From: an uncultured Planctomycetia bacterium
GTDB lineage: Bacteria > Omnitrophota > Gorgyraeia > Duberdicusellales > Duberdicusellaceae
Direction of reading: 5' to 3'
DNA: 64,000 nucleotides
Assembly (NCBI GenBank): GCA_964634935.1
Contig: CAZWJT010000002.1
Location: 10,570 to 74,569, forward strand
Shown one piece after another: positions 4,988 to 31,535 of the stretch. How positions within the stretch are numbered: position 1 is the first letter of the stretch; the number at the start of each line of letters is the position of its first letter. Both the position numbers and the translations under genes were made by a program. The notes below the pieces were generated by a model. It saw only the letters and a program-made list of their open reading frames with translations. It had not been told where the DNA came from and did no database searches.

Positions 4988-5013
4988 TAGATGCACGAGA
5001 ACATGAGGAAACA

Positions 5014-8000: not shown

Positions 8001-9246
8001 TGAATACTATGGCTATCGAGTGGTGAGTAGCCGTCTGAATACATACTCGGTTGATGGTGTTTCCGGAGATATTATTGTTACTCGTGACAAGCTTGTTCAG
8101 GGGCAGCTGCATATTGACGCACAATTGAGCCATACAGATAAGGCAAAGACGCTTCTTTTCTCAGAAGATGGAGGAAGGACTTGGAAAGAAATACCACTAA
8201 GCGCGAACATCAGGTATTCGTTTTATCCGATGCCAAACAGGCTTTACAATCCTTTTGTCCAGATTAAAACCGAAGATCTTCTTGTAGTCAATCTCAAGCT
8301 TATTCCCAGCGCGAACGGGATTATCTATAAGGATGAAGATTTTAACCAGCAGGTAGTAGCCGCAGTTAAAGCGCTTGCCGAAGCATACGAGCGCCGGGAT
8401 TTATCGGGTTTTAGCGACCTTATTTCTCGGAATTATGCGGGAAATAAGACATTTCTCGAAGAAGGCGTTCGGTTTGATTTTGATCTTTTTCTCAATATTT
8501 CTTTGAAAATTTACATCAATCGCATTGAACAACGCGGAGATCGATTTGTCGTTGAAACCAAGTGGGATAAAAGCCAAACACCACGTCAGACAGGTCAGAC
8601 TCAAAAGACAACCGGACGAACCACGATTATGTTTGTAGTAGAGGATGGTAAACTCAAAGTTCAAAACCTGCGAGGAGATCTTCTCTATGCGACACTTTCT
8701 CCTGAAATTGCTCAAGCGAGTGGATTGTCTTCCGCCAAGGTTGAAGAAATCCGCACTGCTCGTGATGAGCGTAATCCGATACAACCGGGCGCGGGAACTA
8801 CAGATGATGATGGAGGGATCGCTTCTCCGGCGGCCACTTTGACTGTTACCACAAAAAGCTTGGAAGATGATTACGGTACCGGCGGCATGCCGGATCAGCA
8901 CATAGACTTTGCTACGGGTAATGTTATTTTAGGCGGAGCAGGAGGCGATATCGGACTTGAAGTGAATGGTTTCTGGGCACAAATAGGTGCCGGGATTAAA
9001 GAAGTCGGCACTTCATTCAATGCGACTACCGACGCTTCCGGAGTAACAGCGTTGGATAATAGCGTTTTTGGTCTTACAACAGGCAAAGTCTATATCTTTT
9101 TGACTACGGGTGGTTACTACGGTAAGCTTGAAGTGATTTCTTGGGATGAAGAAGACAGAGATCTTGATACTGTTTTTGATACCTCAATTGTGCAATTTCG
9201 CTATGCTGTCCAGACAAATGGGACATCCGATGTAACTACTCAGTAA
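5014..9246 (+). CDS. Giant (1410 aa) secreted coiled-coil protein, function unknown
   Basis: Signal peptide MRFKTIFFLTLLGFHFCGVCCSGYA. Long K/E/Q-rich heptad stretches (e.g. EEQKKKNEEYQRRQAEEAKFQAEEARKQEEARNQ). Gly/Thr-rich beta-like C-terminal 250 aa. RBS GAGGAAACAATG. Confidence 0.6.
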   Translation: MRFKTIFFLTLLGFHFCGVCCSGYAEDESLSQKAANQVIDSLPDFIKDVQAMRNMTPQQKIDYLMGAVDDRVKEKVSEKFKDQIKDKVKDFTRAALRARAFQEFGIPQIRNAFVLGEAVNWGKIESEIVSNVDTKMRMFDAGWKAAEIGWGAYEAYATGDAVAAAKSISGSVCELLAEAYIPGWGWIKFGAKMVEALGNYVLSYATDTAVQGMLEDMYGMKSNPSGFADWLIKQSPQAIMADLNSKWDDGMAFGYLWQGQGTDKGDEEMKSRLQSVLVGLRGQLLAKIKEEEAKEKELQQYMEQYNQETEKRAKDLQSVAKQATDEAEKILAPVKSFREKYYGIRKQEVQQQETRIRSQMVGGAGIAYSSLNYKGLVNIYRNALSEVKDGPSKSGFDKEAYERMYNEYGPAVAKELKRFSETNEAAIQAAGKAMWAAWGPQFDALSTQINAAFKRGDHRTVEALNNQLAALNARFAPVQQAHAKAVSEARTKMALEEQLLGTEYTLATLEATERGAKFGMRIVEAYKSINDQLSKANTELGLGLKILRENIHKLNYPGLWRHAGSIAGAIGGGYSGPAEQLRKGEYEFFVGPGHLSGAIANAEEEERKLKADLEKLSELDSAERKLYAAYRQVVANAFNSYQAVTPERLQVIHKPPIFSGDQEENRRNSMIGAARSGNPSSLGDEYWGIADFPYVSFPGGYPRITGTIISLEFLNQIDSFLGNPSEPYREALKKVQQDITALRGWAETDELAGIINQLGPRLSKLFDQYAYFGEGIPGIIYKFRALPEGKGGQGTIIDERTVLDTAGYVYLQEMKEVWEKNGHRVAQFANLAKGYGKGHNYPRDYNPKRYIDKLPTWQGIPQKIQIYEQAMIQAIKESKEAYAQARKQIDELKDQFEQSRSGFGAMNLKNMQNVQKTLKLIIQYNLVAPGYTAMKDEILQFEKDMEEGIATWLEEQKKKNEEYQRRQAEEAKFQAEEARKQEEARNQDALKRTNPAEYYGYRVVSSRLNTYSVDGVSGDIIVTRDKLVQGQLHIDAQLSHTDKAKTLLFSEDGGRTWKEIPLSANIRYSFYPMPNRLYNPFVQIKTEDLLVVNLKLIPSANGIIYKDEDFNQQVVAAVKALAEAYERRDLSGFSDLISRNYAGNKTFLEEGVRFDFDLFLNISLKIYINRIEQRGDRFVVETKWDKSQTPRQTGQTQKTTGRTTIMFVVEDGKLKVQNLRGDLLYATLSPEIAQASGLSSAKVEEIRTARDERNPIQPGAGTTDDDGGIASPAATLTVTTKSLEDDYGTGGMPDQHIDFATGNVILGGAGGDIGLEVNGFWAQIGAGIKEVGTSFNATTDASGVTALDNSVFGLTTGKVYIFLTTGGYYGKLEVISWDEEDRDLDTVFDTSIVQFRYAVQTNGTSDVTTQ

Positions 9247-9376: not shown

Positions 9377-9455
9377 GGTGGGTGTAGCTCAGTTTGGCTA
9401 GAGCACTTGACTGTGGCTCAAGATGTCGAGGGTTCAAATCCCTTCACCCACCCCA
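9377..9455 (+). tRNA. tRNA-His (anticodon GUG) with extra G-1 and encoded 3' CCA
   Basis: G(-1) precedes acceptor GTGGGTG/CACCCAC. Anticodon loop CTGTGGC. T-arm GAGGGTTCAAATCCCTT. Discriminator C followed by CCA in the DNA. Confidence 0.8.
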
Positions 9456-9462
9456 TATTTAA

Positions 9463-9518
9463 CCCTCATGCGAACCCGGACTCTTCGGAGCCACAAACGC
9501 ATGAGGGTTTTTCTTTTT
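9463..9518 (+). terminator. Hairpin plus T-run immediately after tRNA-His
   Basis: CCCTCATGCG ... CGCATGAGGG (10-bp stem, large loop) followed by TTTTTCTTTTT. Confidence 0.5.
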
Positions 9519-9553
9519 CTGGTGGGGAAGCGCTTGAGTTTGCTCCCCAAGAG

Positions 9554-10084
9554 ATGGTCGAGTTTATCAAATATCTGAAGAGCTATTCTTCGATATGGCC
9601 GAGAACTTACTTTTGTGAATTTCCTTTCTTTATCTCCATTACCAATTTTAAACGAAAAATATGCTTTGGAACACGGCCCGAAGACTTGGCCGATATGGGG
9701 ATTATTCATCAAAAAGCATGGGAAAGGCATCAGGCGCATTTAAATCGTCTGTCCCGATTTCCGCTTGATAAGGCAGAATATTATCAAAGGTTGAAGGAGA
9801 TGCATGCGGTGAATACCGTTCGTGGGCTTTCGACAATAACAGGGGAGGACTGGTCGTATATTGCTAAGATTCTTAGAGTTTTATTATTGCCGGAACCAAT
9901 TAAAGATTTTTTGAGGAATAATAAGAGCAATTCTGAGATTGTGAAGTTCTTCACTCTACGTCGTCTTCTTAATATTGTGCGGCAACGTGAGGAAAGGCTT
10001 CAATTAAGCTATTTCAGTGAGCTTATGGAAAAATATGGGATGGCGTTTATCGACTCTTGGACGCAGGATAACATCAAAAGATGA
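9554..10084 (+). CDS. Hypothetical protein (first gene of the island downstream of tRNA-His)
   Basis: ORF track 9407..10084 begins inside the tRNA. The first ATG downstream of the tRNA terminator is 9554 (MVEFIKYL...). No recognisable domain. Confidence 0.4.
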   Translation: MVEFIKYLKSYSSIWPRTYFCEFPFFISITNFKRKICFGTRPEDLADMGIIHQKAWERHQAHLNRLSRFPLDKAEYYQRLKEMHAVNTVRGLSTITGEDWSYIAKILRVLLLPEPIKDFLRNNKSNSEIVKFFTLRRLLNIVRQREERLQLSYFSELMEKYGMAFIDSWTQDNIKR

Positions 10085-10119
10085 ATCAAATCGCCGTGCC
10101 TAAATGTCCATTCCGTATG

Positions 10120-10147
10120 AATGTCCGCTCATTAGCGGACATTTTCT
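10120..10147 (+). terminator. Stem-loop after the hypothetical gene
   Basis: AATGTCCGCT-catt-AGCGGACATT followed by TT. The T-run is short, so this is a weak call. Confidence 0.3.
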
Positions 10148-10388
10148 AGCCAGCAGACATTTATAATAAAAGCGTAGGAACTGAAATTCCAATTAAGTTT
10201 ATTCACTTTTTCTGTATTCGGAAAAACAAGTAATATTTTGGGCTTCAAACGGCTCAAATTAGCCTGAAAAATAGTCTATTCCTGCAAAAATTGATTATTT
10301 TGCAGGCTTACGATAAAATGCCTTCGTTTTAGGTATTTGAGAATTTTTTTGATATTTTAGCCATAACATCGTGCAAGAAAAAAAAGAA

Positions 10389-10417
10389 TTGACAAATATT
10401 TGTTAAAATGGTATTAT
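10389..10417 (+). promoter_or_regulatory. Sigma70-like promoter TTGACA-N17-TATTAT for the ATPase/TOPRIM operon, overlapped by the near-palindrome TTGACAAATATTTGTTAA
   Basis: The -35 is 10389..10394 and the -10 is 10412..10417. The -35 lies inside an imperfect 9-9 inverted repeat, which could be an operator. Confidence 0.45.
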
Positions 10418-10462
10418 TACATTGTCAATAACGCTCAAAATAAGTATTTCAGGAGGGATAAA

Positions 10463-11689
10463 ATGATTCATTCATTTACGTTCAAAAATTTTTGTTCCTT
10501 TGCAAATAATGCCACAATATTGTTTCAGGATATTCGCAAAGGAGTAGAAACTAAGAGTAATATGTTTTGCGACACCTCGTTAGGCGACCGTGTAAGCAAA
10601 GTTATGATCGTGGTTGGGCCTAACGCGTCTGGTAAGACAAGCGCCCTTAAGGCGTTGGCTTTTCTTAGTTGGTTTGTGCGAAATTCCTTTGTTGGGCTGG
10701 AAGGGGAAAAGGAGCCAATCCCTGTCGATAATTTCGCTTTCTCAGAGGATAAAGAAAGCGTGTCGGAATTCGAATTGGTTTTTGATCACAAAGATGTTGT
10801 TTATAAATATATCCTGCATTTATGCAAAACCCATGTCATAAAGGAAGAGCTATACCGCAAAGAAGATACCCAGCATTTTAATTATATATTCAAGAGAAAT
10901 TGGAACGCACAGGCGGGGAGTTCTGAGATTGTTCAGCGCATAAATTTAAAGACAGAAATTCTTAAAGAAATCTTGCGCAAGAACGTGTCTTTAATTGCCG
11001 CGTCAGTCGCGATAAAGAACGATTTTCTTACAGATATTGCCGGGTTCTGGGAGAAGATCATTAGCAACGTTAATCGCATGGGAAAATCATGGGACACTTC
11101 TTCGCTTGGCGAACGCGGCTTATTTGAAGCCACAGAGGCCTATAATAAAAATCAAAATCTTTTTGTTAAAGTTGTTCAGTTTTTGAAAGACATTGATCTT
11201 GGTTTAGAGGGAGTGTTGATCGAAGAGGGAGAAGCTCGAAATCCTAAAACCGGAGAAGCGAAGAAAATTTATTTGCCATATGGCGTGCATAAGGTTAAGG
11301 ACAAGCAATATAAATTACCGTTAGCTTTTGAATCCAGCGGCACAAAAAATATGTTTGTGCTTTTGCATTTTCTTTTGCCAGCTATTGAGCAGGGCGGGCT
11401 TGCGGTAATAGACGAGCTTGAGATCGATTTGCATCCTCACGCCGTCCCGCAAATAATCGAGTTGTTCGCTAACCCAGCCACCAACCCTAAAAATAGCCAA
11501 CTCCTTTTTACTTCACATTCCCTGGAGGTTCTTAACCATCTTGAGAAGGAACAAATTGTTCTGGTTGAGAAAAAACAGGAGTGTAAAAGTGAGCTTTATC
11601 GGCTTGATGAATTGAAAGGAATACGTCGCGACGATAACATCTACGCAAAATATATGGCCGGTGCTTATGGCGCGGTTCCAAACATATAA
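10463..11689 (+). CDS. AAA_21/AAA_15 (ABC/OLD-type) ATPase, AbiLi/RloA/AriA-like
   Basis: Walker A VVGPNASGKTSALKAL. C-terminal ESSGTKNMFVLLHFL ... AVIDELEIDLHP ... LLFTSHSLEVL signatures. The ORF track starts at TTG 10400, but ATG 10463 has a strong RBS (AGGAGGG). Confidence 0.75.
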   Translation: MIHSFTFKNFCSFANNATILFQDIRKGVETKSNMFCDTSLGDRVSKVMIVVGPNASGKTSALKALAFLSWFVRNSFVGLEGEKEPIPVDNFAFSEDKESVSEFELVFDHKDVVYKYILHLCKTHVIKEELYRKEDTQHFNYIFKRNWNAQAGSSEIVQRINLKTEILKEILRKNVSLIAASVAIKNDFLTDIAGFWEKIISNVNRMGKSWDTSSLGERGLFEATEAYNKNQNLFVKVVQFLKDIDLGLEGVLIEEGEARNPKTGEAKKIYLPYGVHKVKDKQYKLPLAFESSGTKNMFVLLHFLLPAIEQGGLAVIDELEIDLHPHAVPQIIELFANPATNPKNSQLLFTSHSLEVLNHLEKEQIVLVEKKQECKSELYRLDELKGIRRDDNIYAKYMAGAYGAVPNI

Positions 11690-11705
11690 ATAAGGGAGCC
11701 GCGAT

Positions 11706-12248
11706 ATGACGCCAAGACGAATAAAGCCGACCAGAAACACAAAAACAACTGTTCTCATTGTAGGCGAAGGCCCTACCGAGAAAGCATTTTTGCAATATCT
11801 CAAGGAGTTATACGTCGCGTGTGATTATGCCTGTGCCGTAAAAGTAGAATGCGGTTCTGGCGGCTCACCTCGCTGTGTAGTGCAAAAAGCCATACGTTTA
11901 CGAGGTAGCAGGGCTTATGATAAGTGTTACGTGCTTTTTGACGCGGATAGGCCGCTTGAAACTGATTATAAATTATCTGATCGCATGAATAAGCGGCCTC
12001 GCGTTGAAGTTCTCAAGGCCACGCCATGCATAGAGGGGTTATTTTTGGCAATATTGAAACACCCCGGATTTTCTCAAGGAAGCGCCGCGTCACATGATTG
12101 CAAACGGGATTTCCATGCCGGTTACATATCCGAAGACAAAAAGATGGACAAACGGTCATATGGGGGGAAGTTTCCAAAAACGATACTGGATAGCCAAAGA
12201 GCGCAGGTTGCAGAGTTAGACCTTATTTTAAAGGCAATGCAGGTTTAG
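11706..12248 (+). CDS. RloB/DUF4276-like TOPRIM protein (AbiLii/OLD-nuclease-like partner)
   Basis: N-terminal basic tail then VLIVGEGPTEKAFLQYL (TOPRIM Glu) and VLFDADRP (DxD). Sits 16 bp after the ATPase gene; RBS AAGGGAG. Confidence 0.6.
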   Translation: MTPRRIKPTRNTKTTVLIVGEGPTEKAFLQYLKELYVACDYACAVKVECGSGGSPRCVVQKAIRLRGSRAYDKCYVLFDADRPLETDYKLSDRMNKRPRVEVLKATPCIEGLFLAILKHPGFSQGSAASHDCKRDFHAGYISEDKKMDKRSYGGKFPKTILDSQRAQVAELDLILKAMQV

Positions 12249-12316
12249 TGAATTTGCTTCAGGCGGTGTCGTCAGCAGGACGTTGTGGGTACCGGGAGCA
12301 ATAAACGGAGGATTTT

Positions 12317-12664
12317 ATGGGTGAAATAAAGGAACTTACAGAGAAAATAAAAGAATTCCGTGACGAGCGAGATTGGAAACAATTTCATAATCATAAGGAT
12401 ATGTCTCTCTCACTAATGCTTGAGGCAGCTGAAGTTTTAGAGCACTTTCAGTGGAAATCACAGAGCGAAGTCGAAAAACATGGAAATGCATGCAAAAATG
12501 AAATAGCTGAAGAGCTCGCTGATGTTGCTATGTACCTATTTGAGCTCGCAGATAATCTTGGTATTAATTTGTCCGATGCTATTGAGCATAAGCTGACAAA
12601 AAATGCTAAAAAGTACCCTGTAGAGAAAGCTAAAGGTAAACACACAAAATACGATAAATTATGA
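12317..12664 (+). CDS. MazG-like nucleoside triphosphate pyrophosphohydrolase (small all-alpha NTP-PPase)
   Basis: IKEFRDERDWKQFHNHKDMSLSLMLEAAEVLEHFQWK and EELADVAMYLFELA are typical of the MazG/dUTPase-like fold. RBS GGAGG. Its stop overlaps the next start (ATGA). Confidence 0.7.
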   Translation: MGEIKELTEKIKEFRDERDWKQFHNHKDMSLSLMLEAAEVLEHFQWKSQSEVEKHGNACKNEIAEELADVAMYLFELADNLGINLSDAIEHKLTKNAKKYPVEKAKGKHTKYDKL

Positions 12665-15075
12665 GGCTTTACTCGGGAACATCACAGCAATTCATTCAAG
12701 ATGCAATTCATAACCAAATCGCAGAGAAGTTAAAGAACGCATTTTTCGGATATTATCGTTACAATCCTTCCCCAGCGGAGATTAATTCTTGGCGCAACTC
12801 CCTTCGTTCGATTAGCCAAGTATTTCAGCATGCGGATCTGATGGATCATGGAGTTCTTCTTGAATACCAATTACCTTTAACTTCTCGCCGACTAGATTGC
12901 ATGATCTGTGGCCGTGATCAACAAAAAGCAGATAATGCTGTTATTGTGGAATTAAAACAATGGGATAGATGTGAAGAGGCGTATGGCGATAACGAAGTGC
13001 TCACATGGGTTGGAGGCGCAAAGCGAGAAGTATTACATCCTTCAGTCCAGGTTGGGCAATATCATCTTTACCTAGAAGATACGCACACAGCATTTAATGT
13101 TGATGATGACCCTGTTACCCTGAACGCTTGTACTTATTTACATAATTACAACTATTATTCCGACGACGTTATTTTTTCAGATAAATTCCAACTTCCTCTT
13201 AAACGGTATCCTCTATTTACTGCAGATGATGTTGAAAAGCTAACAGATTATTTGAGGGATAGACTTTTAACCGGAGACGGCCTAGATGTTTTACAAAGGA
13301 TCGAAGAAAGTAAATATCGTCCAAATAAAAAGCTCATGGATCACGTAGGTAACATAATAAAAAACAAAACAGAGTATATTCTGCTAGATGAGCAACTTAT
13401 CGTTTATGATGCTGTCTTGGGATGCGCAAAAAGAAGCTTCCATGATAAGCAAAAGTCTGTAATTGTTGTTAAAGGTGGCCCAGGCACTGGCAAGTCTGTT
13501 ATAGCAATTAACTTAATGGCTGACTTGCTATTGAAAGGTTACAACTCTCATTATGCCACTGGTTCAAAGGCTTTCACAGAGACATTGCGGAAGATCATCG
13601 GAACTCGCGGATCCGTACAGTTTAAATATTTTAACAGTTATGGTCAAGCAGAAGAGAATGCTGTAGATATTCTCATCGCGGATGAGGCCCATCGTATACG
13701 AGAGACAAGCAATAGTCGATTTACACCTCGCGCGAGCCGCTCCGAAATGACACAAATTGAAGAATTGCTTCGGGCGTCTAAGGTCGCGGTATTTTTTATT
13801 GATGATGACCAAGTAGTGCGTCCTAATGAAATAGGCTCTGTTGATTATATTAAGAGAATCGCAGACGATCGCAAAATCAAACTCCATGAATATGAATTAG
13901 AAGCTCAATTTCGTTGTAATGGATCTGATGCGTTTGTAAGTTGGATCAACAATACCTTAGGGATTAAAAGAACCGCCCATGTAATCTGGGATCAACATGA
14001 AGAATTTGATTTTAAGATATTTTCTAGTCCAATTGAACTTGAAAATGCCATACGTAATAATGTTGCACGAGGCTTTACTGGAAGAGTAACAGCTGGTTTT
14101 TGCTGGGATTGGTCGCTCCCGAATGAAGATGGTACGTTGAAAAATGATGTAATCATAGGAGATTATAAACGACCATGGGATGCAAAGCCGGAGGCTAAAC
14201 GCTTAGCTCCAGGTATTCCGAAAGCTTCCCTGTGGGCATATGATCCTAATGGTATTAATCAAGTTGGATGTGTGTATACTGCACAGGGTTTCGAGTTTGA
14301 TTATGTCGGAGTTATTTTTGGTGAAGATTTAGTATATGACTTTGATAAGCAAGAGTGGATCGGCAATTCGGCTAATTCCTCTGATAGCGTAGTTAAGCGG
14401 TCTAAGAACAAATTTGTGGATTTGGTAAAAAATACTTATAGAGTTTTATTAAGCCGAGGAATGAAGGGTTGTTACGTCTATTTTATGAATAAAGATACCG
14501 AGAGGTTTTTTAAATCACGAATTGAAGGTGATAATACACAAATAGATGAATCTTTAACCGTTTCTAGGCTTCTAGGTAGCGAGGTAGATTTTCTTGAACG
14601 TATTCTCCAAGACGTTGATAGCTCTTTGAAATACAAAGAATATTTACCAGTTTATACTTTGGCTGCGGCAGCCGGTGCATTCGGCGAAGGCATGGATGTT
14701 AAAGAAAAGGGTTGGATTAAGGTTAACATCGGTAAGGCTTTGAATAAAAAATTATTCGTTGCGAAAGTAATCGGTAAGTCTATGGAACCGTTAATTCCTG
14801 ATGGGAGCTATTGTGTGTTTAGTGCGAACGTTGTTGGCACGCGAGCGAATAAGATTGTTTTAGTTCAACACAGCAGCATTTCTGATCTTGATAGTGGCGG
14901 AAAATATACGGTGAAGAAATATACGAGTAAGAAAAAATACTCGTCAGATGACACTTGGGAACATGACGAAATAACTTTGTTGCCGCTAAATCCTGACTAC
15001 GCTCCCATCATAATACCGAATACCAATGAGGGCGAGTTTATGGTGATCGCAGAATTTATATCAGTATTAAAATAA
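12661..15075 (+). CDS. DUF2075-type nuclease/helicase: N-terminal PD-(D/E)xK motif, P-loop NTPase, C-terminal LexA/UmuD-type S24 autopeptidase domain
   Basis: RLDCMICG...AVIVELKQW matches D..ExK. Walker A VVKGGPGTGKSV and Walker B ILIADEAHRI. DUF2075 tail CVYTAQGFEFDYVGVIFGEDL. The C terminus has AAAAG (Ala671-Gly672) then 35 aa later VIGKSMEPLIPDGSYCVF (Ser707), TVKKY (Lys), LLPLNPDYAPIIIP, matching the S24 layout. Confidence 0.75.
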   Translation: MRLYSGTSQQFIQDAIHNQIAEKLKNAFFGYYRYNPSPAEINSWRNSLRSISQVFQHADLMDHGVLLEYQLPLTSRRLDCMICGRDQQKADNAVIVELKQWDRCEEAYGDNEVLTWVGGAKREVLHPSVQVGQYHLYLEDTHTAFNVDDDPVTLNACTYLHNYNYYSDDVIFSDKFQLPLKRYPLFTADDVEKLTDYLRDRLLTGDGLDVLQRIEESKYRPNKKLMDHVGNIIKNKTEYILLDEQLIVYDAVLGCAKRSFHDKQKSVIVVKGGPGTGKSVIAINLMADLLLKGYNSHYATGSKAFTETLRKIIGTRGSVQFKYFNSYGQAEENAVDILIADEAHRIRETSNSRFTPRASRSEMTQIEELLRASKVAVFFIDDDQVVRPNEIGSVDYIKRIADDRKIKLHEYELEAQFRCNGSDAFVSWINNTLGIKRTAHVIWDQHEEFDFKIFSSPIELENAIRNNVARGFTGRVTAGFCWDWSLPNEDGTLKNDVIIGDYKRPWDAKPEAKRLAPGIPKASLWAYDPNGINQVGCVYTAQGFEFDYVGVIFGEDLVYDFDKQEWIGNSANSSDSVVKRSKNKFVDLVKNTYRVLLSRGMKGCYVYFMNKDTERFFKSRIEGDNTQIDESLTVSRLLGSEVDFLERILQDVDSSLKYKEYLPVYTLAAAAGAFGEGMDVKEKGWIKVNIGKALNKKLFVAKVIGKSMEPLIPDGSYCVFSANVVGTRANKIVLVQHSSISDLDSGGKYTVKKYTSKKKYSSDDTWEHDEITLLPLNPDYAPIIIPNTNEGEFMVIAEFISVLK

Positions 15076-15085
15076 TAGGTTAGGC

Positions 15086-15790
15086 ATGATATTAAAACCC
15101 GGTGAAATAGTTTCTTATTTAACAATGTGCCAGCACGAAGGGGTAAACCTTCAGCGGGGCATGAATTTCCGGTTAAAGGGCGGGCTAAGTGTCATTTTAA
15201 TGAGCTTAAGAAAGAATGCCCCGTATGCTGATAGAGTCGAGGATGATGGTGGCGTTCTGATCTATGAAGGCCACGATGTTCCGAAATATCAGGGGTTAAA
15301 GCAAAATCCAAAACAAATTGATCAGCCAGGGCTTACTCCCTCAGGGGCATTAACCGAAAATGGCAAGTTTTTCAAAGCGGCCGAAGGATATAAGAAAAAT
15401 AATGGCATTCCAGAGCTCGTTAAAGTTTATGAGAAGATACGTAACGGCATTTGGACGTATTCTGGGATTTTTGAATTGATTGATGCATGGCAGGAAGCTG
15501 CTGGGAAGCGAAAGGTATTTAAATTCAAACTAAAAATTACCGATCGGTCAGAGGCCGATCGCGACCCTGCAAATAAGGACGACTTGGATCATACGCGCGT
15601 AATACCCACAGATGTTAAATTGGCGGTATGGGAGCGCGATAAAGGACGATGTGTTGTATGCAATTCGGCAAACAACTTGCACTTTGATCACATTATCCCA
15701 TTCTCAAAGGGCGGTACATCTTTAAAAGCAGAAAATATTCAATTGATGTGTGCAAGGCATAATCTAAATAAACGAGATAAATTAATTTAG
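15086..15790 (+). CDS. SRA(YDG)-like domain fused to an HNH endonuclease: putative type IV modification-dependent restriction enzyme
   Basis: C-terminal HNH: CVVCNSANNLHFDHIIPFSKGG...NIQLMCARHN. The N-terminal GGLSVILMS...YADRVEDDGGVLIYEGHD resembles the SRA motif S-V-L-SGG...Y-DD-D-G...YTG-GG. 10 bp after the DUF2075 gene. Confidence 0.55.
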   Translation: MILKPGEIVSYLTMCQHEGVNLQRGMNFRLKGGLSVILMSLRKNAPYADRVEDDGGVLIYEGHDVPKYQGLKQNPKQIDQPGLTPSGALTENGKFFKAAEGYKKNNGIPELVKVYEKIRNGIWTYSGIFELIDAWQEAAGKRKVFKFKLKITDRSEADRDPANKDDLDHTRVIPTDVKLAVWERDKGRCVVCNSANNLHFDHIIPFSKGGTSLKAENIQLMCARHNLNKRDKLI

Positions 15791-15970
15791 ATTCGATAAA
15801 CTTTTGATAAGGAAACGAATTAAATGGCATTGGTTTGTTGATCATTGGGTTTTGTTAGCTCAAAATTCGGGGAGCTTCACATTTTTTTGCTCCTGTGGCT
15901 CTAGACTGCGCGGTTTCTAATACCGCGAGGCCACCCCAGCTTAAAAATTTCTGCCAAATTTTTAAGCGTC

Positions 15971-16148
15971 CCAAAGCCATCCCGGGAAATATCCACAGGA
16001 AATTTCCCGGGTATTCAAACGGCGAGGGGCAGGATTACATATCGCTACTTCCAATGTCTTCCTGAGCATATCAATCAGATCTTCTGAATATCAAATGGCA
16101 GAGGGTTTTGTCTGGTAAAGGAAAACCTTTTATAATATAATGTTTTAT
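15971..16148. repeat. 178-bp direct repeat, copy 1 (identical to 18686..18863); contains a palindrome and a consensus promoter
   Basis: Base-by-base comparison of the two copies shows identity over 178 bp. Internal inverted repeat CCCGGGAAAT-N11-ATTTCCCGGG at 15981..16011. Confidence 0.9.
16108..16136 (+). promoter_or_regulatory. Sigma70 promoter TTGTCT-N17-TATAAT at the 3' end of repeat copy 1
   Basis: -35 16108..16113, 17-nt spacer, -10 TATAAT 16131..16136. Points toward the gene starting at 16323. Confidence 0.6.
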
Positions 16149-16322
16149 GCCCTTTTTGTAAATAAGAATGGCCTTGCCCGAGTGCTGGATTGTGCCGTCT
16201 ACCGAGATCAAAGGGCTTCTGTACAAGAACCCAAAGGGCAACCGATCGGTGATTGACTGTTATGGCGAGAAAGGCATGCTAAAAAGAGGGCTTCGCTTTA
16301 AGGATAACTGGGAGCTTCTGAA

Positions 16323-16820
16323 ATGACAGAATTGCTTCAAGCACAAGTTCGATCTATCGGCGAGCATTACGTTGTTGCTCGGCTTACGACGCTGGGGTTT
16401 ATCGTGGGCTTGGCGCCTGAGAATACAAGAGCTGTTGATATTATTGCGATGAGCGAGGATGGCAAAAGAAACCTCCAGATTCAGGTTAAAACGCGAACGG
16501 AAGGCCGTTCTGCCGATAAAGGCTGGATGATGAGTGAGAAACACGAATCCTTAGTGAATGACAATTTATATTATATTTTCGTTACTTTACCGGAGCAATG
16601 GACTGACCGCGATCAACCGTCCACTTTTATTATTCCATCAAAGAAAGTGGCCGCTATTGTTAAGCAATCGCATAAAGACTGGACATCCAGCCCCGGGCGT
16701 AAAGGTCAAAAGCGTAACGATACCAAAATGAGACGAATCAAGCCGATCTATTCAGATTCTCCATCAATTCCTGCTGACTGGATGGATGAATACCGGGATA
16801 ATTGGGAGATTTTGAAATGA
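16323..16820 (+). CDS. Small hypothetical protein with a PD-(D/E)xK-like motif arrangement
   Basis: GEHYVVARL ... VDIIAM ... LQIQVK resembles the E / D / (E/Q)xK restriction-endonuclease-fold core. No other match. Confidence 0.4.
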   Translation: MTELLQAQVRSIGEHYVVARLTTLGFIVGLAPENTRAVDIIAMSEDGKRNLQIQVKTRTEGRSADKGWMMSEKHESLVNDNLYYIFVTLPEQWTDRDQPSTFIIPSKKVAAIVKQSHKDWTSSPGRKGQKRNDTKMRRIKPIYSDSPSIPADWMDEYRDNWEILK

Positions 16821-17470
16821 CTTTAGATCGATATGTCGCATGGGCCTTGGCTAATATTAACATAACCCTTCCCGTTTCCCGCAGAGTTGAGGAAGATTGG
16901 TTATATAATTGGTCGAGGACGTTGGATGCGATTAACAGCGTGACTGGGATATTTGAGGTTACGTCGTTGATATTCTCACGGTCTGAGTTTCTTGGCGGTT
17001 TATATCTTGGAAAAACGGCGGATACAACAGCTGACGATTTTAAACTGTTCTGGGATAAGTTCTTCCCGGAGGAGTATAAGGATTTTCATAATATGAGCGG
17101 CCAAGGTAAAGGTTCAGACATCTTCAATGTATTCAGAAATAATATCCTTCACTCAGGGACAGCAACGGCGATTAAATCTGGTGCCGATGATATTATTGGC
17201 TGGTTGATGGGATACGGGGTAAATCCCGATGGCAAGGGCATATCTTTTAAGGATCGGGCGTTTCATATTGACTGCCAGAATCTAACTACCGAGTTCAAAG
17301 AGGCGCTGAAGAAATATATTTCTTACTTGAAAGATGATACGGATGATTTAAACGGACAGGGCATTCCAAGCGTACGCTGGAGAAAAGGATTTTGGTATAC
17401 CTTAAAGCCTGTTTATATGGATTCTGCTTCATGGGGCGCTTTAGGTCGAGATAATAAGATTTATTCTTAA
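16817..17470 (+). CDS. Hypothetical protein, translationally coupled (ATGA) to the upstream gene
   Basis: ATG 16817 overlaps stop 16818..16820. No recognisable motif. Confidence 0.4.
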   Translation: MTLDRYVAWALANINITLPVSRRVEEDWLYNWSRTLDAINSVTGIFEVTSLIFSRSEFLGGLYLGKTADTTADDFKLFWDKFFPEEYKDFHNMSGQGKGSDIFNVFRNNILHSGTATAIKSGADDIIGWLMGYGVNPDGKGISFKDRAFHIDCQNLTTEFKEALKKYISYLKDDTDDLNGQGIPSVRWRKGFWYTLKPVYMDSASWGALGRDNKIYS

Positions 17471-17485
17471 TGCGAGAGGTTAATT

Positions 17486-18436
17486 ATGGCGAAAATTATA
17501 TGCTTCACTGCAATATTATTGCTGAATACTATTTTAGCAAGCGCGCAGGATACCCCTTTGGAAAAACAACTGACATTGATATACAAGAATGCGGAAGATG
17601 CAACCACCAAAGGCGATATCGAGCAGTCAGATTTTTGGTTGGCCAGATACATGGGTTTAACAGCCACAGATGAAAACACAAACCGTGGCTACCCCGATTT
17701 AATCCCATTGTTTAAAAAACGAGAGGATTTAAAACCCACAGCATTTATCTCTGGAAAGTACGATGATAGTTTTATCGAATTCTACGCTCGCGGAACATGT
17801 GGCATGTGGGGCGCGCCCGATGAAGGTATTGATAGAGAAAAGCGAGAATTTATAATTCAGTCCTATTCAGATGGTCGCTATTTTGTCGAGATAACAGCTT
17901 CGCCTCGGCTTGAGAATTGGTCTATTTTAAAAGAGCCCGCAGTTGTAGCCGTTATCCCTCTCGGGAAAAACCCCATTATCCATTCAGGTAAACTTGATAA
18001 AAATGCGGTTGCTAAACGCTTCAAGAATATGCCCTTTGATATCGGAGAAAGTTTTATCCACTACGTCTGGCAACCGGAAATGCACGATTTAGATGGGGAT
18101 GGCATACCTGAAGTATGGATCCGCTATATTAAGGCTTGGGCCGATGGTTTTTCTCAGGAATTGGCTATATATAAAATTAAAGATGACAGTGATCTTGTCC
18201 TATTAAAGCAGTTCTCCGGTGAAGCCGAAGGCATTGCCAGACGCCTTGACGGGAATGGGGTCGAGATAGGCACCGGCTTTACTAATAAGAATGTTGGGCA
18301 TCTAGGTTTTGATCAGACACGCCTTGAAATATGGGCATACAGAGATGGCAAATTCATAAAGACTTCCGAAAGGAATGTTCCCCATATTCTCTGGAGTAAT
18401 GCATGGGAGAAGTATTATTTTAATAGTCAAAAATGA
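17486..18436 (+). CDS. Secreted hypothetical protein (signal peptide)
   Basis: MAKIICFTAILLLNTILASAQD signal peptide. RBS GAGAGG. Confidence 0.5.
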   Translation: MAKIICFTAILLLNTILASAQDTPLEKQLTLIYKNAEDATTKGDIEQSDFWLARYMGLTATDENTNRGYPDLIPLFKKREDLKPTAFISGKYDDSFIEFYARGTCGMWGAPDEGIDREKREFIIQSYSDGRYFVEITASPRLENWSILKEPAVVAVIPLGKNPIIHSGKLDKNAVAKRFKNMPFDIGESFIHYVWQPEMHDLDGDGIPEVWIRYIKAWADGFSQELAIYKIKDDSDLVLLKQFSGEAEGIARRLDGNGVEIGTGFTNKNVGHLGFDQTRLEIWAYRDGKFIKTSERNVPHILWSNAWEKYYFNSQK

Positions 18437-18463
18437 TGTTTTGCGGGACAATGGATTAGTTAG

Positions 18464-18506
18464 CAGGCTACAAGGCAGTTTCTAACCTGCTTAAGCCATC
18501 GACCCC
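18464..18506. repeat. 45-bp motif copy A (CAGGCTACAAGGCAGTTTCTAA core)
   Basis: A 22-nt perfect match plus a similar 20-nt extension relative to 20515..20557. Starts 28 bp after the stop of the secreted-protein gene. Confidence 0.7.
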
Positions 18507-18685
18507 AATGAAACTTACTTCTTTCTGTCTCGACAAAGCAGAAAGAAGTTTAGTTGAATTGTCCCCGAACAGCTTTCGGAAAATGTCAAAGAGATTTTCC
18601 GAATATGAGAGATGTTCGGGGTACAACACTGCATGCGGTGCAAAAAGCAGCGCAGGCCATCAGAAAAGGCCAAGGTTTAGTTACT

Positions 18686-18863
18686 CCAAAGCCATCCCGG
18701 GAAATATCCACAGGAAATTTCCCGGGTATTCAAACGGCGAGGGGCAGGATTACATATCGCTACTTCCAATGTCTTCCTGAGCATATCAATCAGATCTTCT
18801 GAATATCAAATGGCAGAGGGTTTTGTCTGGTAAAGGAAAACCTTTTATAATATAATGTTTTAT
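18686..18863. repeat. 178-bp direct repeat, copy 2
   Basis: Identical to 15971..16148. ORF-track ORFs 18508..18780 and 18554..18802 lie in it and are considered spurious. Confidence 0.9.
18823..18851 (+). promoter_or_regulatory. Sigma70 promoter TTGTCT-N17-TATAAT (repeat copy 2) driving gltA
   Basis: -10 18846..18851. gltA ATG 18935 with RBS AGAGAGGTGG. Confidence 0.6.
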
Positions 18864-18934
18864 AATCGTGTATTAAGAGATTGTACCTGTTGCTAAAATA
18901 AACCAGTATATGATGTCTGAAAGAGAGGTGGCAA

Positions 18935-20230
18935 ATGAATATTCCGGAATCAGGTAAGCCGCTCGATACGGCCGCAATAACAATTGGTGATAAGATCGTT
19001 TCCTGTCCTATTATCACAGGCGTTGAGAATGAGAAAGCCTTGGATATTTCTGGGCTTCGCAATAAAACAGGTTACGTGACGTATGACGAGGGATATGTCA
19101 ATACCGCCTCTTGCTTAAGCAGCATTACCTACATAGACGGGGAGAATGGAATATTGCGATACAGGGGGATTCCCGTGGAAGAACTTGCCGCAAAACGAAG
19201 CTTTATTGAAGTCGCTCATTTGCTTATTTTCGGGCACTTGCCGTCGGTTACAGAGAAAAGTACCTTTTCTAAACTTCTTACCAGTAACTGCATGATTCAT
19301 GACAATATGGTCAAGCTTTTTGATAACTTGCCCGGTTCAAGCCATCCCATGGCTACTTTGTCGGCAATGGTGGTGACGCTTTCTGCGTATTATCCTGAGT
19401 TGGTAAAGCCCGAGATGAACGCAGGGGAGATGAATAAAATTATTGCCGAACTTCTTGCCAAGATCAGGACCCTTGCGGCGTATTCATACAAAAAATCCAT
19501 CGGTGAACCTATCATTTACCCGAAACGCGAGTATAAATATGTCGAAAACTTTCTTCATATGATGTTTTCCACTCCTGTAGATGAATACCCCTTAGATCAA
19601 GAAGTGGTAGATGCCCTGGAAAAGATTCTTATCCTCCACGCTGATCATGAGCAGAATTGCAGTACTTCAACCGTGCGGTTGGTGGGAAGTTCTAAAGCCA
19701 ATCTTTTTGCGTCTATCTCTGCGGGTATTTGTGCCCTCTGGGGACCTTTACATGGCGGTGCGAATCAAGCCGTTATTGAGATGCTTGAGGCGATCGTTAG
19801 GGATAAGATAGATGTGAGGCATGTTATCGAGAAAGCAAAGGACAAAAATAATCCTTTCTTGCTTATGGGTTTTGGCCATCGAATTTATAAGAATTTTGAT
19901 CCCCGGGCGAGGATTATTAAGGAAATATGCGATAAAGTGCTCACGAAACTGGGTATCAATGATCCTTGTCTTGAGATTGCTAAAAAGATCGAGGAAGTAG
20001 CCCTGAAAGACGATTTCTTCATTCAACGCAAACTTTATCCTAACGTTGATTTTTACAGCGGCATAATTCTTCGCGCGATCGGTATCCCGACGAATATGTT
20101 TACCGTTATTTTTGCTATGGGGCGGCTTCCTGGATGGATCGCACATTGGAAGGAACAATGTGAGTCTCCCAATCAAAAGATTGGGCGACCCCGTCAAGTC
20201 TATATCGGAGCGCCACTGACGCATATATAA
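18935..20230 (+). CDS. gltA: Citrate synthase
   Basis: Canonical LILHADHEQNCSTSTVRLVGSS, GPLHGGANQAV, MGFGHRIYKNFDPRA motifs. Confidence 0.9.
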   Translation: MNIPESGKPLDTAAITIGDKIVSCPIITGVENEKALDISGLRNKTGYVTYDEGYVNTASCLSSITYIDGENGILRYRGIPVEELAAKRSFIEVAHLLIFGHLPSVTEKSTFSKLLTSNCMIHDNMVKLFDNLPGSSHPMATLSAMVVTLSAYYPELVKPEMNAGEMNKIIAELLAKIRTLAAYSYKKSIGEPIIYPKREYKYVENFLHMMFSTPVDEYPLDQEVVDALEKILILHADHEQNCSTSTVRLVGSSKANLFASISAGICALWGPLHGGANQAVIEMLEAIVRDKIDVRHVIEKAKDKNNPFLLMGFGHRIYKNFDPRARIIKEICDKVLTKLGINDPCLEIAKKIEEVALKDDFFIQRKLYPNVDFYSGIILRAIGIPTNMFTVIFAMGRLPGWIAHWKEQCESPNQKIGRPRQVYIGAPLTHI

Positions 20231-20514: not shown

Positions 20515-20557
20515 CAGGCTACAAGGCAGTTTCTAATCCGCTGAATCCGGCGATTCC
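20515..20557. repeat. 45-bp motif copy B (CAGGCTACAAGGCAGTTTCTAA core), with a partial upstream copy at 20463..20483
   Basis: See copy A. Located 284 bp after the gltA stop. Confidence 0.7.
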
Positions 20558-20649
20558 ACAGTTTGACTGCGTACGACCCTTGAATTTTGCATGATAATGT
20601 TTCTGACTGATGTTTTTATTGACTTTAAGAATATTTTTGCTATTATAAT

Positions 20650-31499: not shown

Positions 31500-31535
31500 G
31501 AACAAGGTTCTACCACAATAAGGAGATTTGATGAG

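What the first reader, a model, noticed from the sequence alone, without database searches (positions are those of the whole stretch)
9456..18934. Accessory (defense) island inserted immediately downstream of tRNA-His, with no integrase or transposase
After tRNA-His and its terminator, all genes up to the promoter repeat before gltA are hypothetical or defense-like: an AAA_21 ATPase + RloB/TOPRIM pair, MazG-like, DUF2075-S24, SRA-HNH, a PD-(D/E)xK-like small protein, and two unknowns. Housekeeping genes flank both sides (tRNAs and envelope operon upstream; gltA and zur-znuACB downstream). tRNA 3' ends are classic integration sites. There is no recombinase, and I found no long direct repeat of the tRNA 3' end. 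This suggests an old or degraded island, or a cassette-type gain mediated by the repeated promoter and motif elements described below.
Basis: partly seen in the sequence, partly recalled or inferred. Interest (0 to 1): 0.7.

Follow-up and report, generated by a model that had tools for sequence, protein, structure and literature searches.

The report
Patchwork phage-defence island beside tRNA-His
A 9.5-kb stretch after a tRNA-His gene in an uncultured Omnitrophota bacterium is a real cluster of anti-phage genes, but it looks like several independently mobile gene modules collected at a chromosomal breakpoint rather than one element inserted into the tRNA, which is a familiar kind of genome feature.

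Summary
tRNA-His (9378-9455) and its terminator are followed by nine + strand genes with no recombinase, ending at gltA. The content is defence-type: an AbiL pair (ABC ATPase + RloB), a MazG-like gene coupled to a nuclease-DUF2075 helicase-S24 peptidase, an HNH nuclease (its SRA domain is below threshold), and a 217-aa 'unknown' shown here to be a HEPN-like Rx4H protein.

In the nearest available relatives gltA follows an aminotransferase, not tRNA-His. The conserved gene trio upstream of tRNA-His is followed by different genes in each relative. No 'empty site' exists to compare, and composition is only weakly atypical.

The block is modular:
- The MazG/DUF2075-S24 pair recurs with exact gene-end boundaries in two other Omnitrophota, in different contexts, and also in a Halomonas replicon.
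- The AbiL pair recurs on a Photobacterium plasmid.
- The last 2.7 kb is bracketed by a perfect 178-nt promoter-bearing repeat. Its second copy lies ~10 nt from the point where ancestral gltA-upstream sequence resumes.

Best reading: a mosaic defence island at a synteny breakpoint. This is a new member of a known kind, of moderate interest.

The parts
9378..9455 (+). tRNA-His (anticodon GTG); left landmark of the block
   Evidence: ARAGORN; Rfam tRNA 67.1 bits
9461..9519 (+). Intrinsic-terminator-like hairpin (12-bp stem) plus U-run after the tRNA
   Evidence: RNA fold: dG -28.5 kcal/mol, z -4.6, 0 of 200 shuffles as stable
9554..10084 (+). Small ORF with a ParB-type HTH only. The start is uncertain (9554 or 9695). 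It may be a truncated remnant
   Evidence: Pfam HTH_ParB 1.4e-05, 25.6 bits against a cutoff of 22.6. No PADLOC, PHROG, NCBIfam, plasmid or viral match
10389..10417 (+). Best sigma-70-like promoter in the region (TTGACA-17-TATTAT with TG), 46 nt upstream of the AbiLi start
   Evidence: Consensus scan, 11 of 12 matches. This is a consensus match only
10463..11689 (+). AbiLi-type ABC (AAA_21/AAA_15) ATPase
   Evidence: Pfam AAA_21 6.6e-32; PADLOC AbiLi 1.9e-75; phrog_5836 1.7e-72. The same pair architecture occurs on a Photobacterium plasmid
11706..12248 (+). AbiLii / RloB (TOPRIM-class) partner, 16 nt after AbiLi
   Evidence: Pfam RloB 1.6e-09, above the cutoff; PADLOC AbiLii 3.3e-11; homologue of the plasmid RloB gene at 3.1e-16
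12317..12664 (+). MazG-like NTP pyrophosphohydrolase. It overlaps the next gene by 4 nt and is the conserved partner of DUF2075-S24
   Evidence: Pfam MazG-like 8.6e-21; phrog_3301 pyrophosphatase 4.5e-18. Adjacent to the DUF2075-S24 gene in L172, L173 and L175
12661..15075 (+). Three-domain protein: N-terminal PD-(D/E)xK-type motif (D79, E97-x-K99), DUF2075/SLFN-g3 SF1 helicase, and a C-terminal LexA-like S24 peptidase with an AAAG cleavage-like site
   Evidence: Pfam 1.9e-88 and 1.1e-09; weak PADLOC hits to PDC-S41, AbiO and Nhi; invariant catalytic residues in 26 homologues; more than 8000 homologues across several phyla
15086..15790 (+). HNH endonuclease with an SRA-like (sub-threshold) N-terminal domain; candidate modification-dependent restriction enzyme
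   Evidence: Pfam HNH 28.6 bits (above cutoff), HNH_5 27.6 bits, SAD_SRA 22.2 bits (below the 30.7 cutoff); PADLOC REase_II 2e-05; no PDB sequence match
15896..15938 (+). Hairpin motif U1 (loop GTTTCTAA), 36 nt before repeat R1
   Evidence: One of only three copies in 64 kb
15971..16148 (+). Repeat R1. It carries a perfect palindrome (CCCGGGAAAT-N10-ATTTCCCGGG) at its 5' end and TTGTCT-17-TATAAT at its 3' end (16108-16136). Presumed promoter of the three-gene cassette
   Evidence: 100% identical to 18686-18863; promoter scan. An independent Logan contig (L162) breaks 30 nt into it
16149..16326 (+). Possible 3' stump of a paralogue of the 165-aa gene. It ends ...DNWELLK and overlaps the next start as ATGA
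   Evidence: 26-nt junction 23 of 26 identical to 16795-16821; BLASTP matches only the last 9 aa, E 5e-04. Weak evidence
16323..16820 (+). 165-aa protein of a phage/plasmid-associated family. The nuclease-like assignment is unverified
   Evidence: phrog_29029 7e-18; homologues on Agrobacterium (40% identity), Klebsiella, Pantoea and Burkholderia plasmids
16817..17470 (+). 217-aa HEPN-like protein with an Rx4H motif (R107, H112); predicted RNase effector from a rare family
17486..18436 (+). 316-aa protein with an N-terminal signal-peptide-like segment; function unknown
   Evidence: No family hit. A 45%-identical homologue lies immediately downstream of the MazG/DUF2075-S24 pair in L173
18464..18507 (+). 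Hairpin motif U2
18686..18863 (+). Repeat R2; presumed promoter now serving gltA (TTGTCT-17-TATAAT at 18823-18851)
18873..18934 (+). Remnant of the ancestral aminotransferase 3' end plus the gltA leader. It marks the rearrangement breakpoint and the true right edge of the block
   Evidence: Alignment with relatives L163, L167 and L168; blastn homology starts at 18896-18925
18935..20230 (+). gltA (citrate synthase); right flank, displaced from its ancestral operon
   Evidence: Pfam 9e-136; synteny comparisons
20515..20558 (+). Hairpin motif U3, after gltA

Best explanation
The block is a mosaic defence island. At least four separately mobile units have accumulated in one variable chromosomal spot, which happens to start at tRNA-His and now ends at a relocated gltA. 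It is not a single integrative element that targeted the tRNA.

Unit 1 is an AbiL-type pair with its own promoter. By analogy with the OLD/PARIS class, an ABC ATPase senses infection and a TOPRIM-class RloB partner acts as the effector.

Unit 2 is a translationally coupled MazG-like pyrophosphohydrolase plus a nuclease-helicase (Nhi-like architecture) that carries a LexA-type S24 self-cleaving domain. I infer that RecA-ssDNA filaments, produced by phage replication or by DNA damage, trigger cleavage at the conserved Ala-Gly site. That would release or activate the nuclease-helicase to degrade replicating phage DNA. The MazG-like partner would act on a nucleotide pool or a signal nucleotide.

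Unit 3 is an HNH nuclease with an SRA-like reader domain, probably a modification-dependent restriction enzyme.

Unit 4 is a three-gene operon: a phage/plasmid-family 165-aa protein, a HEPN-like Rx4H predicted RNase, and a secreted 316-aa protein. It is driven by one copy of a 178-nt promoter-bearing repeat. The second copy sits at the breakpoint where gltA was cut from its ancestral aminotransferase operon, and it now supplies gltA's promoter. Recombination between the two perfect copies could delete the 2.7-kb unit, or could have inserted it.

Shown: gene content, module boundaries, the repeat, the breakpoint and the lack of mobility genes. Inferred: all of the biochemistry, the promoter activity and the order of events.
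For: - Domain and family assignments.
- Defence hits occur in the block but not in the flanks.
- The MazG/DUF2075-S24 pair is shared with two other Omnitrophota MAGs, with DNA homology limited to 12317-15077 and unrelated flanks. A MazG-like gene is also adjacent in a Halomonas replicon whose DUF2075-S24 is 35% identical.
- DUF2075-S24 homologues are 64-73% identical in MAGs labelled Betaproteobacteria and Actinomycetota, against at most ~63% for gltA outside Omnitrophota.
- Invariant D/ExK, Walker A/B, S24 Ser/Lys and the AAG site.
- The AbiLi-like + RloB pair is on a 5-kb Photobacterium plasmid.
- HEPN-like fold and Rx4H motif.
- The 165-aa family is on plasmids.
- Perfect 178-nt repeat with promoter-like hexamers.
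- Ancestral sequence resumes ~10 nt after R2.
- gltA's context differs in every relative.
- Synteny ends right after the upstream trio.
- No integrase and no tRNA-end repeat.
- Literature: AbiL grouped with ABC ATPase + TOPRIM systems (PMC11464382); Nhi / Nhi-like defined as nuclease + DUF2075 (10.1101/776245 and 10.1101/2022.05.11.491447); SRA-HNH enzymes as modification-dependent restriction enzymes (PMC6765204).
Against: - No same-species genome was available, so presence/absence polymorphism of the block, or of its units, was not observed directly.
- Relatives anchored on the upstream trio are distant (58-65% aa identity), so loss of synteny there is weak evidence.
- Composition is only mildly atypical and codon usage is not. 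This fits old or within-phylum acquisition, but equally fits vertical inheritance.
- L172 has the MazG/DUF2075-S24 pair ~5 kb from orthologues of window genes 30396-32783. The pair may therefore have been inherited vertically in this neighbourhood.
- The window comes from a metagenome-assembled contig, so the order of segments around a 178-nt perfect repeat could be an assembly choice.
- No function was tested.
Confidence: 0.6

Rival explanations
1. The block is a classical tRNA-targeted genomic island. One element integrated into the 3' end of tRNA-His through a tyrosine integrase and later lost its integrase and distal att repeat.
For: - The block starts directly after the tRNA and its terminator.
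- A lone ParB-HTH-like ORF next to the tRNA could be a remnant of a mobile element.
- Block GC is slightly lower than the flanks.
Against: - No integrase or fragment of one was found, and no repeat of the tRNA 3' end within 3 mismatches.
- The right end is a rearrangement breakpoint inside a former aminotransferase-gltA operon, not an att site.
- The internal units have separate histories and sharp boundaries of their own.
- tRNA-His is absent after the conserved trio in relatives, so it may itself belong to the variable region.
Confidence: 0.15
2. The block is a lineage-specific but vertically inherited chromosomal region. These genes are long-standing residents of this Omnitrophota clade, and the apparent lack of synteny simply reflects rapid genome shuffling in a poorly sampled phylum.
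For: - Codon usage is indistinguishable from the rest of the window.
- The closest DUF2075-S24 homologues are Omnitrophota.
- L172 keeps the pair near orthologues of window genes 30396-32783, and L173 keeps a homologue of the 316-aa gene next to the pair.
- gltA's neighbourhood is scrambled even at 93% identity.
Against: - The flanks of the shared pair are unrelated in all three genomes, and homology stops at the gene ends.
- Homologues occur on plasmids and in other phyla at high identity.
- The 217-aa family is very sparse.
- DUF2075-S24 is more similar between genomes (87% aa) than the adjacent housekeeping pair (71-79%).
Confidence: 0.15
3. The right-hand 2.7 kb arrangement (R1-cassette-R2-gltA) is an assembly artefact. 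R is a multi-copy element, and the assembler joined unlinked segments through it.
For: - The window is from a MAG contig.
- A 178-nt perfect repeat exceeds typical k-mer sizes.
- The independent Logan assembly breaks exactly 30 nt into R1.
Against: - A graph break at a repeat is expected for a true repeat too.
- A 178-nt repeat is shorter than a read pair's span, so it can be resolved.
- The ancestral gltA leader begins ~10 nt after R2, and the cassette genes are coupled and on the same strand, which is a coherent structure.
- R was found nowhere else in 64 kb or in any related locus.
Confidence: 0.1

Closest known systems
Defence islands and integrase-less chromosomal defence hotspots
   Same: Several unrelated anti-phage modules are packed between ordinary chromosomal genes, next to a tRNA, with no dedicated mobility genes. 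The modules recur in other genomes in different contexts.
   Different: Hotspots are normally defined by conserved flanking core genes across many strains. Here neither flank is conserved with the block in any available relative, and the right flank (gltA) has itself been relocated.
AbiL (AbiLi/AbiLii) abortive-infection system; OLD/PARIS-class ABC ATPase + TOPRIM systems
   Same: A two-gene unit: an AAA_21/AAA_15 ATPase followed by an RloB-domain protein. PADLOC models for both AbiL genes match. The same pair occurs on a small plasmid.
   Different: It is only ~30% identical to the plasmid examples. No phenotype, trigger or target is known for this version.
Nhi / Nhi-like single-protein defence (N-terminal nuclease + DUF2075 helicase)
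   Same: An invariant D...ExK motif in the N-terminal region is followed by a DUF2075 SF1 helicase with intact Walker A and B motifs. It lies in a defence-gene context.
   Different: It carries an extra C-terminal LexA-type S24 peptidase with a conserved Ser/Lys dyad and an Ala-Gly site. It is always paired with a MazG-like gene in the three contexts seen. It matches the PADLOC Nhi model only weakly and partially (1e-13, residues 237-436).
SRA-HNH modification-dependent restriction endonucleases (ScoA3IV, TagI)
   Same: A C-terminal HNH nuclease of the right size follows an N-terminal domain of ~150 aa whose best Pfam match is SAD_SRA. No methyltransferase is adjacent.
   Different: The SRA match is below the family threshold, and there is no sequence match to any solved SRA structure.
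HEPN-domain toxins and abortive-infection effectors (HEPN-MNT, AbiV)
   Same: A helical fold whose best structural matches are HEPN proteins, with an Rx4H motif conserved across the family.

Membership tests
tRNA-integrating genomic island | Site-specific recombinase (integrase) at one end | tested here: not met
   No integrase or transposase domain in any of the 9 proteins (Pfam, NCBIfam, PHROGs). The largest non-coding gap is 532 nt.
tRNA-integrating genomic island | Direct repeat of the tRNA 3' end at the distal boundary | tested here: not met
   The 25-mer of the tRNA-His 3' end occurs once in 64 kb at up to 3 mismatches.
tRNA-integrating genomic island | Empty site (tRNA directly followed by the distal flank) in related genomes | tested here: inconclusive
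   No relative has tRNA-His next to either flank. gltA follows an aminotransferase in the relatives that keep an intact upstream operon, and the trio is followed by different genes in each relative. No same-species genome was found.
tRNA-integrating genomic island | Composition distinct from the host chromosome | tested here: inconclusive
   GC 41.3% against 44.0% (p=0.007). GC3 (p=0.18) and synonymous codon usage (p=0.75) do not differ.
AbiL system | AbiLi: AAA_21/AAA_15 ABC-type ATPase | tested here: met
   PADLOC AbiLi 1.9e-75; Pfam AAA_21 112 bits, AAA_15 71 bits.
AbiL system | AbiLii: RloB-domain partner encoded immediately downstream | tested here: met
   Pfam RloB 38.7 bits against a cutoff of 31.5; PADLOC AbiLii 3.3e-11; 16-nt spacer.
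AbiL system | Confers phage resistance by abortive infection | not testable with these tools
   Needs expression and phage challenge.
Nhi / Nhi-like | DUF2075 SF1 helicase domain with intact NTPase motifs | tested here: met
   Pfam PF09848 1.9e-88. GGPGTGKS and DE..H are invariant in 26 homologues.
Nhi / Nhi-like | N-terminal PD-(D/E)xK nuclease | tested here: inconclusive
   D79 and E97-L-K99 are invariant, but there is no family or fold match for residues 1-240.
Nhi / Nhi-like | Stand-alone single-gene, two-domain architecture | tested here: not met
   It has an additional S24 domain and a conserved MazG-like partner gene in 3 of 3 contexts.
LexA/UmuD-type S24 self-cleaving module | Ser-Lys catalytic dyad | tested here: met
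   G-x-S-M-E-P and T-V-K-[KRV]-Y are present in all 23 S24-bearing homologues.
LexA/UmuD-type S24 self-cleaving module | Ala-Gly (or Cys-Gly) cleavage site upstream of the catalytic core | tested here: met
   An A-A-[AC]-G motif lies ~35 residues before the Ser in most members.
LexA/UmuD-type S24 self-cleaving module | RecA*-stimulated autocleavage | not testable with these tools
   Biochemical assay needed.
SRA-HNH modification-dependent restriction enzyme | HNH catalytic domain | tested here: met
   Pfam HNH 28.6 bits against 21.4; HNH_5 27.6 bits against 27.5.
SRA-HNH modification-dependent restriction enzyme | SRA (SAD_SRA) modified-cytosine reader domain | tested here: inconclusive
   22.2 bits against a cutoff of 30.7. 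No significant PDB sequence match.
HEPN superfamily | Rx4-6H motif | tested here: met
   R107-N-N-I-L-H112; conserved in 29 of 30 family members.
HEPN superfamily | HEPN helical-bundle fold | tested here: inconclusive
Integron / attC cassette array | IntI integrase | tested here: not met
   No integrase domain in any block protein. attC sites were not tested with a dedicated model.

The most novel reading that the evidence does not exclude
The MazG-like + (PD-(D/E)xK)-DUF2075 helicase-S24 peptidase pair is an undescribed, widespread, cross-phylum two-gene anti-phage system. In it a LexA-type self-cleaving domain makes an Nhi/Schlafen-like nuclease-helicase respond to RecA-ssDNA filaments, so the SOS signal would be wired directly into an immune effector. 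The neighbouring 165-aa + HEPN-like Rx4H pair would be a second new toxin-type module.
Probability: 0.3. Interest if true: 0.65.

Novelty: new member of a known kind. Interest (0 to 1): 0.4.

Why it matters
As an island this is ordinary. Clusters of defence genes at variable chromosomal sites are well known, and this one adds an example from Omnitrophota, a phylum with almost no cultured members.

Three by-products are more useful:
1. A nuclease-DUF2075 helicase carrying a LexA-type S24 domain and coupled to a MazG-like enzyme is very common: more than 8000 homologues at E<=1e-30, with S24-bearing members at >=60% identity in several phyla. It sits in defence contexts in every genome inspected. 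I found no description of it in the papers searched. DUF2075 is the helicase domain of human Schlafens, so a damage-triggered bacterial version would be a testable model.
2. A rare HEPN-like family is now recognisable by its Rx4H motif.
3. A housekeeping gene (gltA) that lost its operon promoter appears to have gained one through a duplicated 178-nt promoter module. This is a concrete example of promoter capture at a rearrangement breakpoint.

Tried and rejected
- The exact look-up of gltA found nothing. Look-ups of the Fur-family and HNH proteins only recovered fragments of the same organism (L161, L162).
- Viral-contig scans for DUF2075-S24, the ParB-like ORF, the 165-aa protein and the HEPN-like family all came back empty.
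- Phage and plasmid searches found nothing for the 316-aa, 217-aa and ParB-like proteins.
- PDB sequence searches found nothing for DUF2075-S24, the HNH protein or the HEPN-like profile.
- The single-sequence AF2 model of the 165-aa protein was unusable (pLDDT 34.5), so 'PD-(D/E)xK-like' stays unverified.
- The afdb50 fold library was unavailable.
- Integron or CALIN reading: rejected because there is no IntI. The hairpin motif has no attC-like inverted core pair that I could see.
- MITE or IS reading of the 178-nt repeat: rejected because it has no terminal inverted repeats and no target-site duplication.
- R as the native gltA promoter: rejected because relatives have only 28-55 nt between the aminotransferase and gltA, and none has R.
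- Literature searches for DUF2075 with MazG, and for S24 with helicase and anti-phage, found no description of the pair.

Full report
**What is there.** ARAGORN and Rfam place tRNA-His(GTG) at 9378-9455. A 12-bp hairpin with a U-run follows it (dG -28.5 kcal/mol, z -4.6). From 9554 to 18436 there are nine + strand genes:
- a short ORF with only a ParB-type HTH (25.6 bits);
- an AAA_21/AAA_15 ATPase (PADLOC AbiLi 1.9e-75), followed 16 nt later by an RloB protein (PADLOC AbiLii 3.3e-11);
- a 115-aa MazG-like protein that overlaps the next gene by 4 nt;
- that next gene, an 804-aa protein with a DUF2075/SLFN-g3 helicase (1.9e-88) and a C-terminal Peptidase_S24 (1.1e-09);
- a 234-aa HNH nuclease whose N-terminal half matches SAD_SRA below threshold (22.2 bits against 30.7);
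- three proteins without Pfam matches.

gltA (18935-20230), a Fur-family regulator and ZnuA/ABC/ABC-3 genes follow. Further downstream the genes are ordinary chromosomal ones. None of the block proteins has a recombinase domain. The tRNA 3' 25-mer is unique at up to 3 mismatches. PADLOC models hit 3 of 9 block proteins at <=1e-5, against 0 of 10 flanking proteins.

**Whose genome.** The closest gltA homologues are all labelled Candidatus Omnitrophota. Fragments of the same organism occur in the Logan assembly of SRR12133403 (L161 and L162).

**Synteny test.** The two collection scans anchored on gltA were swamped by conserved motifs and gave nothing closer than 62%. Through the protein search I fetched gltA loci at 85-93% aa identity (L163-L168).
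- gltA is the only window gene they share.
- In two lineages gltA lies 28-55 nt after an aminotransferase in a purC-hexapeptide-purE-aminotransferase string. In the closest relative (L168, 92.6%) a 1761-aa gene lies upstream.
- None of these loci has tRNA-His.
- On the other side, orthologues of the 1410-aa gene that precedes tRNA-His (58-65% identity) sit in a conserved trio (578 aa, 150 aa, ~1400 aa) in L169-L171. Synteny ends right after that gene, the downstream genes differ in each locus, and no tRNA-His is present.

A tRNA-His|gltA 'empty site' therefore does not exist among the available relatives. The block lies at a synteny breakpoint. This neither proves nor excludes insertion, because no same-species genome was found.

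**The right edge.** An alignment of the gltA upstream regions shows that window ~18873-18934 is still homologous to the last ~50 nt of the relatives' aminotransferase gene plus the short spacer. Immediately to the left, at 18686-18863, lies copy 2 of a perfect 178-nt direct repeat. Copy 1 is at 15971-16148.
- Each copy begins with a perfect 10-bp-arm palindrome and ends with TTGTCT-17-TATAAT.
- Copy 1 faces the three-gene operon 16323-18436, and copy 2 faces gltA.
- In this lineage gltA was cut from its ancestral operon and now sits behind a duplicated promoter module.
- The repeat has no terminal inverted repeats and no target duplication. It occurs nowhere else in the window or in any related locus.
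- The independent Logan contig L162 stops 30 nt into copy 1, which is what a k=31 graph does at a true repeat. The order of segments still needs read-level confirmation.

**Composition.** Block genes average 41.3% GC against 44.0% for the other 49 genes (Mann-Whitney p=0.007). The difference is driven by the MazG-like and DUF2075-S24 genes, which have the lowest GC3 in the window (0.31 and 0.33). Overall GC3 (p=0.18) and synonymous codon usage (p=0.75) do not differ. The signal is weak.

**Modularity.** DUF2075-S24 has more than 8000 homologues at E<=1e-30.
- Homologues that carry S24 are at least 60% identical in MAGs labelled Omnitrophota, Betaproteobacteria and Actinomycetota (Oleimmundimicrobium).
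- Variants of ~625 aa without S24, one of them from an Auribacterota MAG, are 77-84% identical over the helicase part.
- In two other Omnitrophota MAGs (L172 and L173; 87% aa identity) a 115-aa MazG-like gene precedes it with the same 4-nt overlap. DNA homology to the window runs only from 12317 to 15077, and the flanks are unrelated. L172 has a second DUF2075 gene and a radical SAM gene there. L173 has AbiEii, SLFN_AlbA_2 and PLD/DEAD genes.
- In a Halomonas replicon whose DUF2075-S24 is only 35% identical, a MazG-like ORF lies directly downstream (phmmer 1.2e-21).
- All three S24-bearing contexts inspected therefore have the MazG-like partner, while the HNH gene is not linked to the pair.
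- The AbiLi-like + RloB pair occurs with the same architecture on a 5-kb Photobacterium plasmid.
- The 165-aa protein matches phrog_29029 (7e-18) and has plasmid homologues in Proteobacteria.

Two observations point the other way. L172 has orthologues of window genes 30396-32783 about 5 kb from the pair. L173 has a 45%-identical homologue of the 316-aa protein right after the pair. Some vertical continuity of this neighbourhood within the clade is therefore possible.

**What the proteins are likely to do.** In an alignment of 26 DUF2075-S24 homologues the following are invariant or nearly so:
- D79 and E97-x-K99 (a PD-(D/E)xK-type motif);
- the Walker A motif (GGPGTGKS) and D341-E342;
- in all 23 S24-bearing members, the Ser of G-x-S-M-E-P and the Lys of T-V-K-[KRV]-Y;
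- in most members, an A-A-[A/C]-G motif ~35 residues upstream, as at LexA/UmuD cleavage sites.

'Nuclease + DUF2075' is the architecture of the anti-phage proteins Nhi and Nhi-like (10.1101/776245 and 10.1101/2022.05.11.491447). The S24 domain and the MazG-like partner are additions. I infer that RecA-ssDNA-stimulated self-cleavage is the activation step. This is not shown.

AbiL belongs with the ABC ATPase + TOPRIM defence systems (PMC11464382). SRA-HNH enzymes are modification-dependent restriction endonucleases (PMC6765204). Membership of that family is open here because the SRA match is sub-threshold and no solved structure matches by sequence.

**Verdict.** The block is a real, defence-rich accessory region without mobility genes. 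It is best read as a mosaic of separately mobile units at a rearrangement-prone site (confidence 0.6). The classical tRNA-targeted island (0.15), a purely vertical lineage-specific region (0.15) and an assembly artefact for the right-hand part (0.1) remain possible. As a kind of feature it is known, so I file it as a new member of a known kind. The most novel reading that the evidence does not exclude is that MazG-like + nuclease-DUF2075-S24 is an undescribed, SOS-triggered, cross-phylum defence system (probability about 0.3).

Noticed in passing
window 15896-15938, 18464-18507, 20515-20558: A hairpin motif with a conserved loop (GTTTCTAA) and an (A)CCCCA tail occurs only three times in 64 kb. 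All three are on the + strand, in the spacers after the HNH gene, after the 316-aa gene and after gltA. The stems of U1 and U2 differ by compensatory changes. There is no Rfam match, and the motif is absent from related loci. Its role is unknown (terminator-like element, processing site or recombination site).
   Followed up: partly
window 15981-16010 and 18696-18725: There is a perfect palindrome, CCCGGGAAAT-N10-ATTTCCCGGG, at the 5' end of each 178-nt repeat, about 100 nt upstream of the promoter-like hexamers. It could be an operator or an insulating hairpin.
   Followed up: no
window 16296-16326 vs 16795-16821: The two gene ends share a 26-nt junction (GGATAAYTGGGAGMTTYTGAAATGA, 23 of 26 identical), and both peptides end ...DNWE(L/I)LK. 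The stretch right of repeat R1 may be the 3' stump of a paralogue of the 165-aa gene, truncated when R1 arrived.
   Followed up: partly
L168 5726-5820 (JGI 2140918012 contig00059): The closest gltA relative (92.6% aa) also keeps only a remnant of the aminotransferase 3' end upstream of gltA, behind an unrelated 1761-aa gene. The aminotransferase-gltA junction therefore appears to have been broken independently in two lineages.
   Followed up: partly
L173 12605-13558: A 317-aa homologue (45% aa identity) of the window's 316-aa secreted protein lies 196 nt downstream of the MazG/DUF2075-S24 pair in another Omnitrophota MAG. This is either an ancestral adjacency or a recurrent association.
   Followed up: partly
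L172 370-5135; L174 1904-5890: Tandem DUF2075 genes occur in another Omnitrophota MAG (a 657-aa gene, then MazG-like, then the 805-aa S24 form) and on a Hymenobacter canadensis plasmid next to a DNA methyltransferase and a DUF4747 gene.
   Followed up: no
window 2799-9246; L169, L170, L171: A conserved three-gene set (578 aa, 150 aa, ~1400 aa) with no Pfam assignment is shared at 35-67% aa identity across several Omnitrophota. It is a lineage-specific cluster of unknown function, possibly envelope-related.
   Followed up: no
window 1-64000: 58 of the 61 ORFs picked by a simple longest-ORF caller are on the + strand, and cumulative GC skew rises almost monotonically across the window. The whole window appears to lie on the leading strand of one replichore.
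   Followed up: no
window 20090 (start of L161): The Logan contig from the same organism begins inside gltA at window 20090, where no repeat is obvious. This may reflect strain variation or low coverage in that sample.
   Followed up: no
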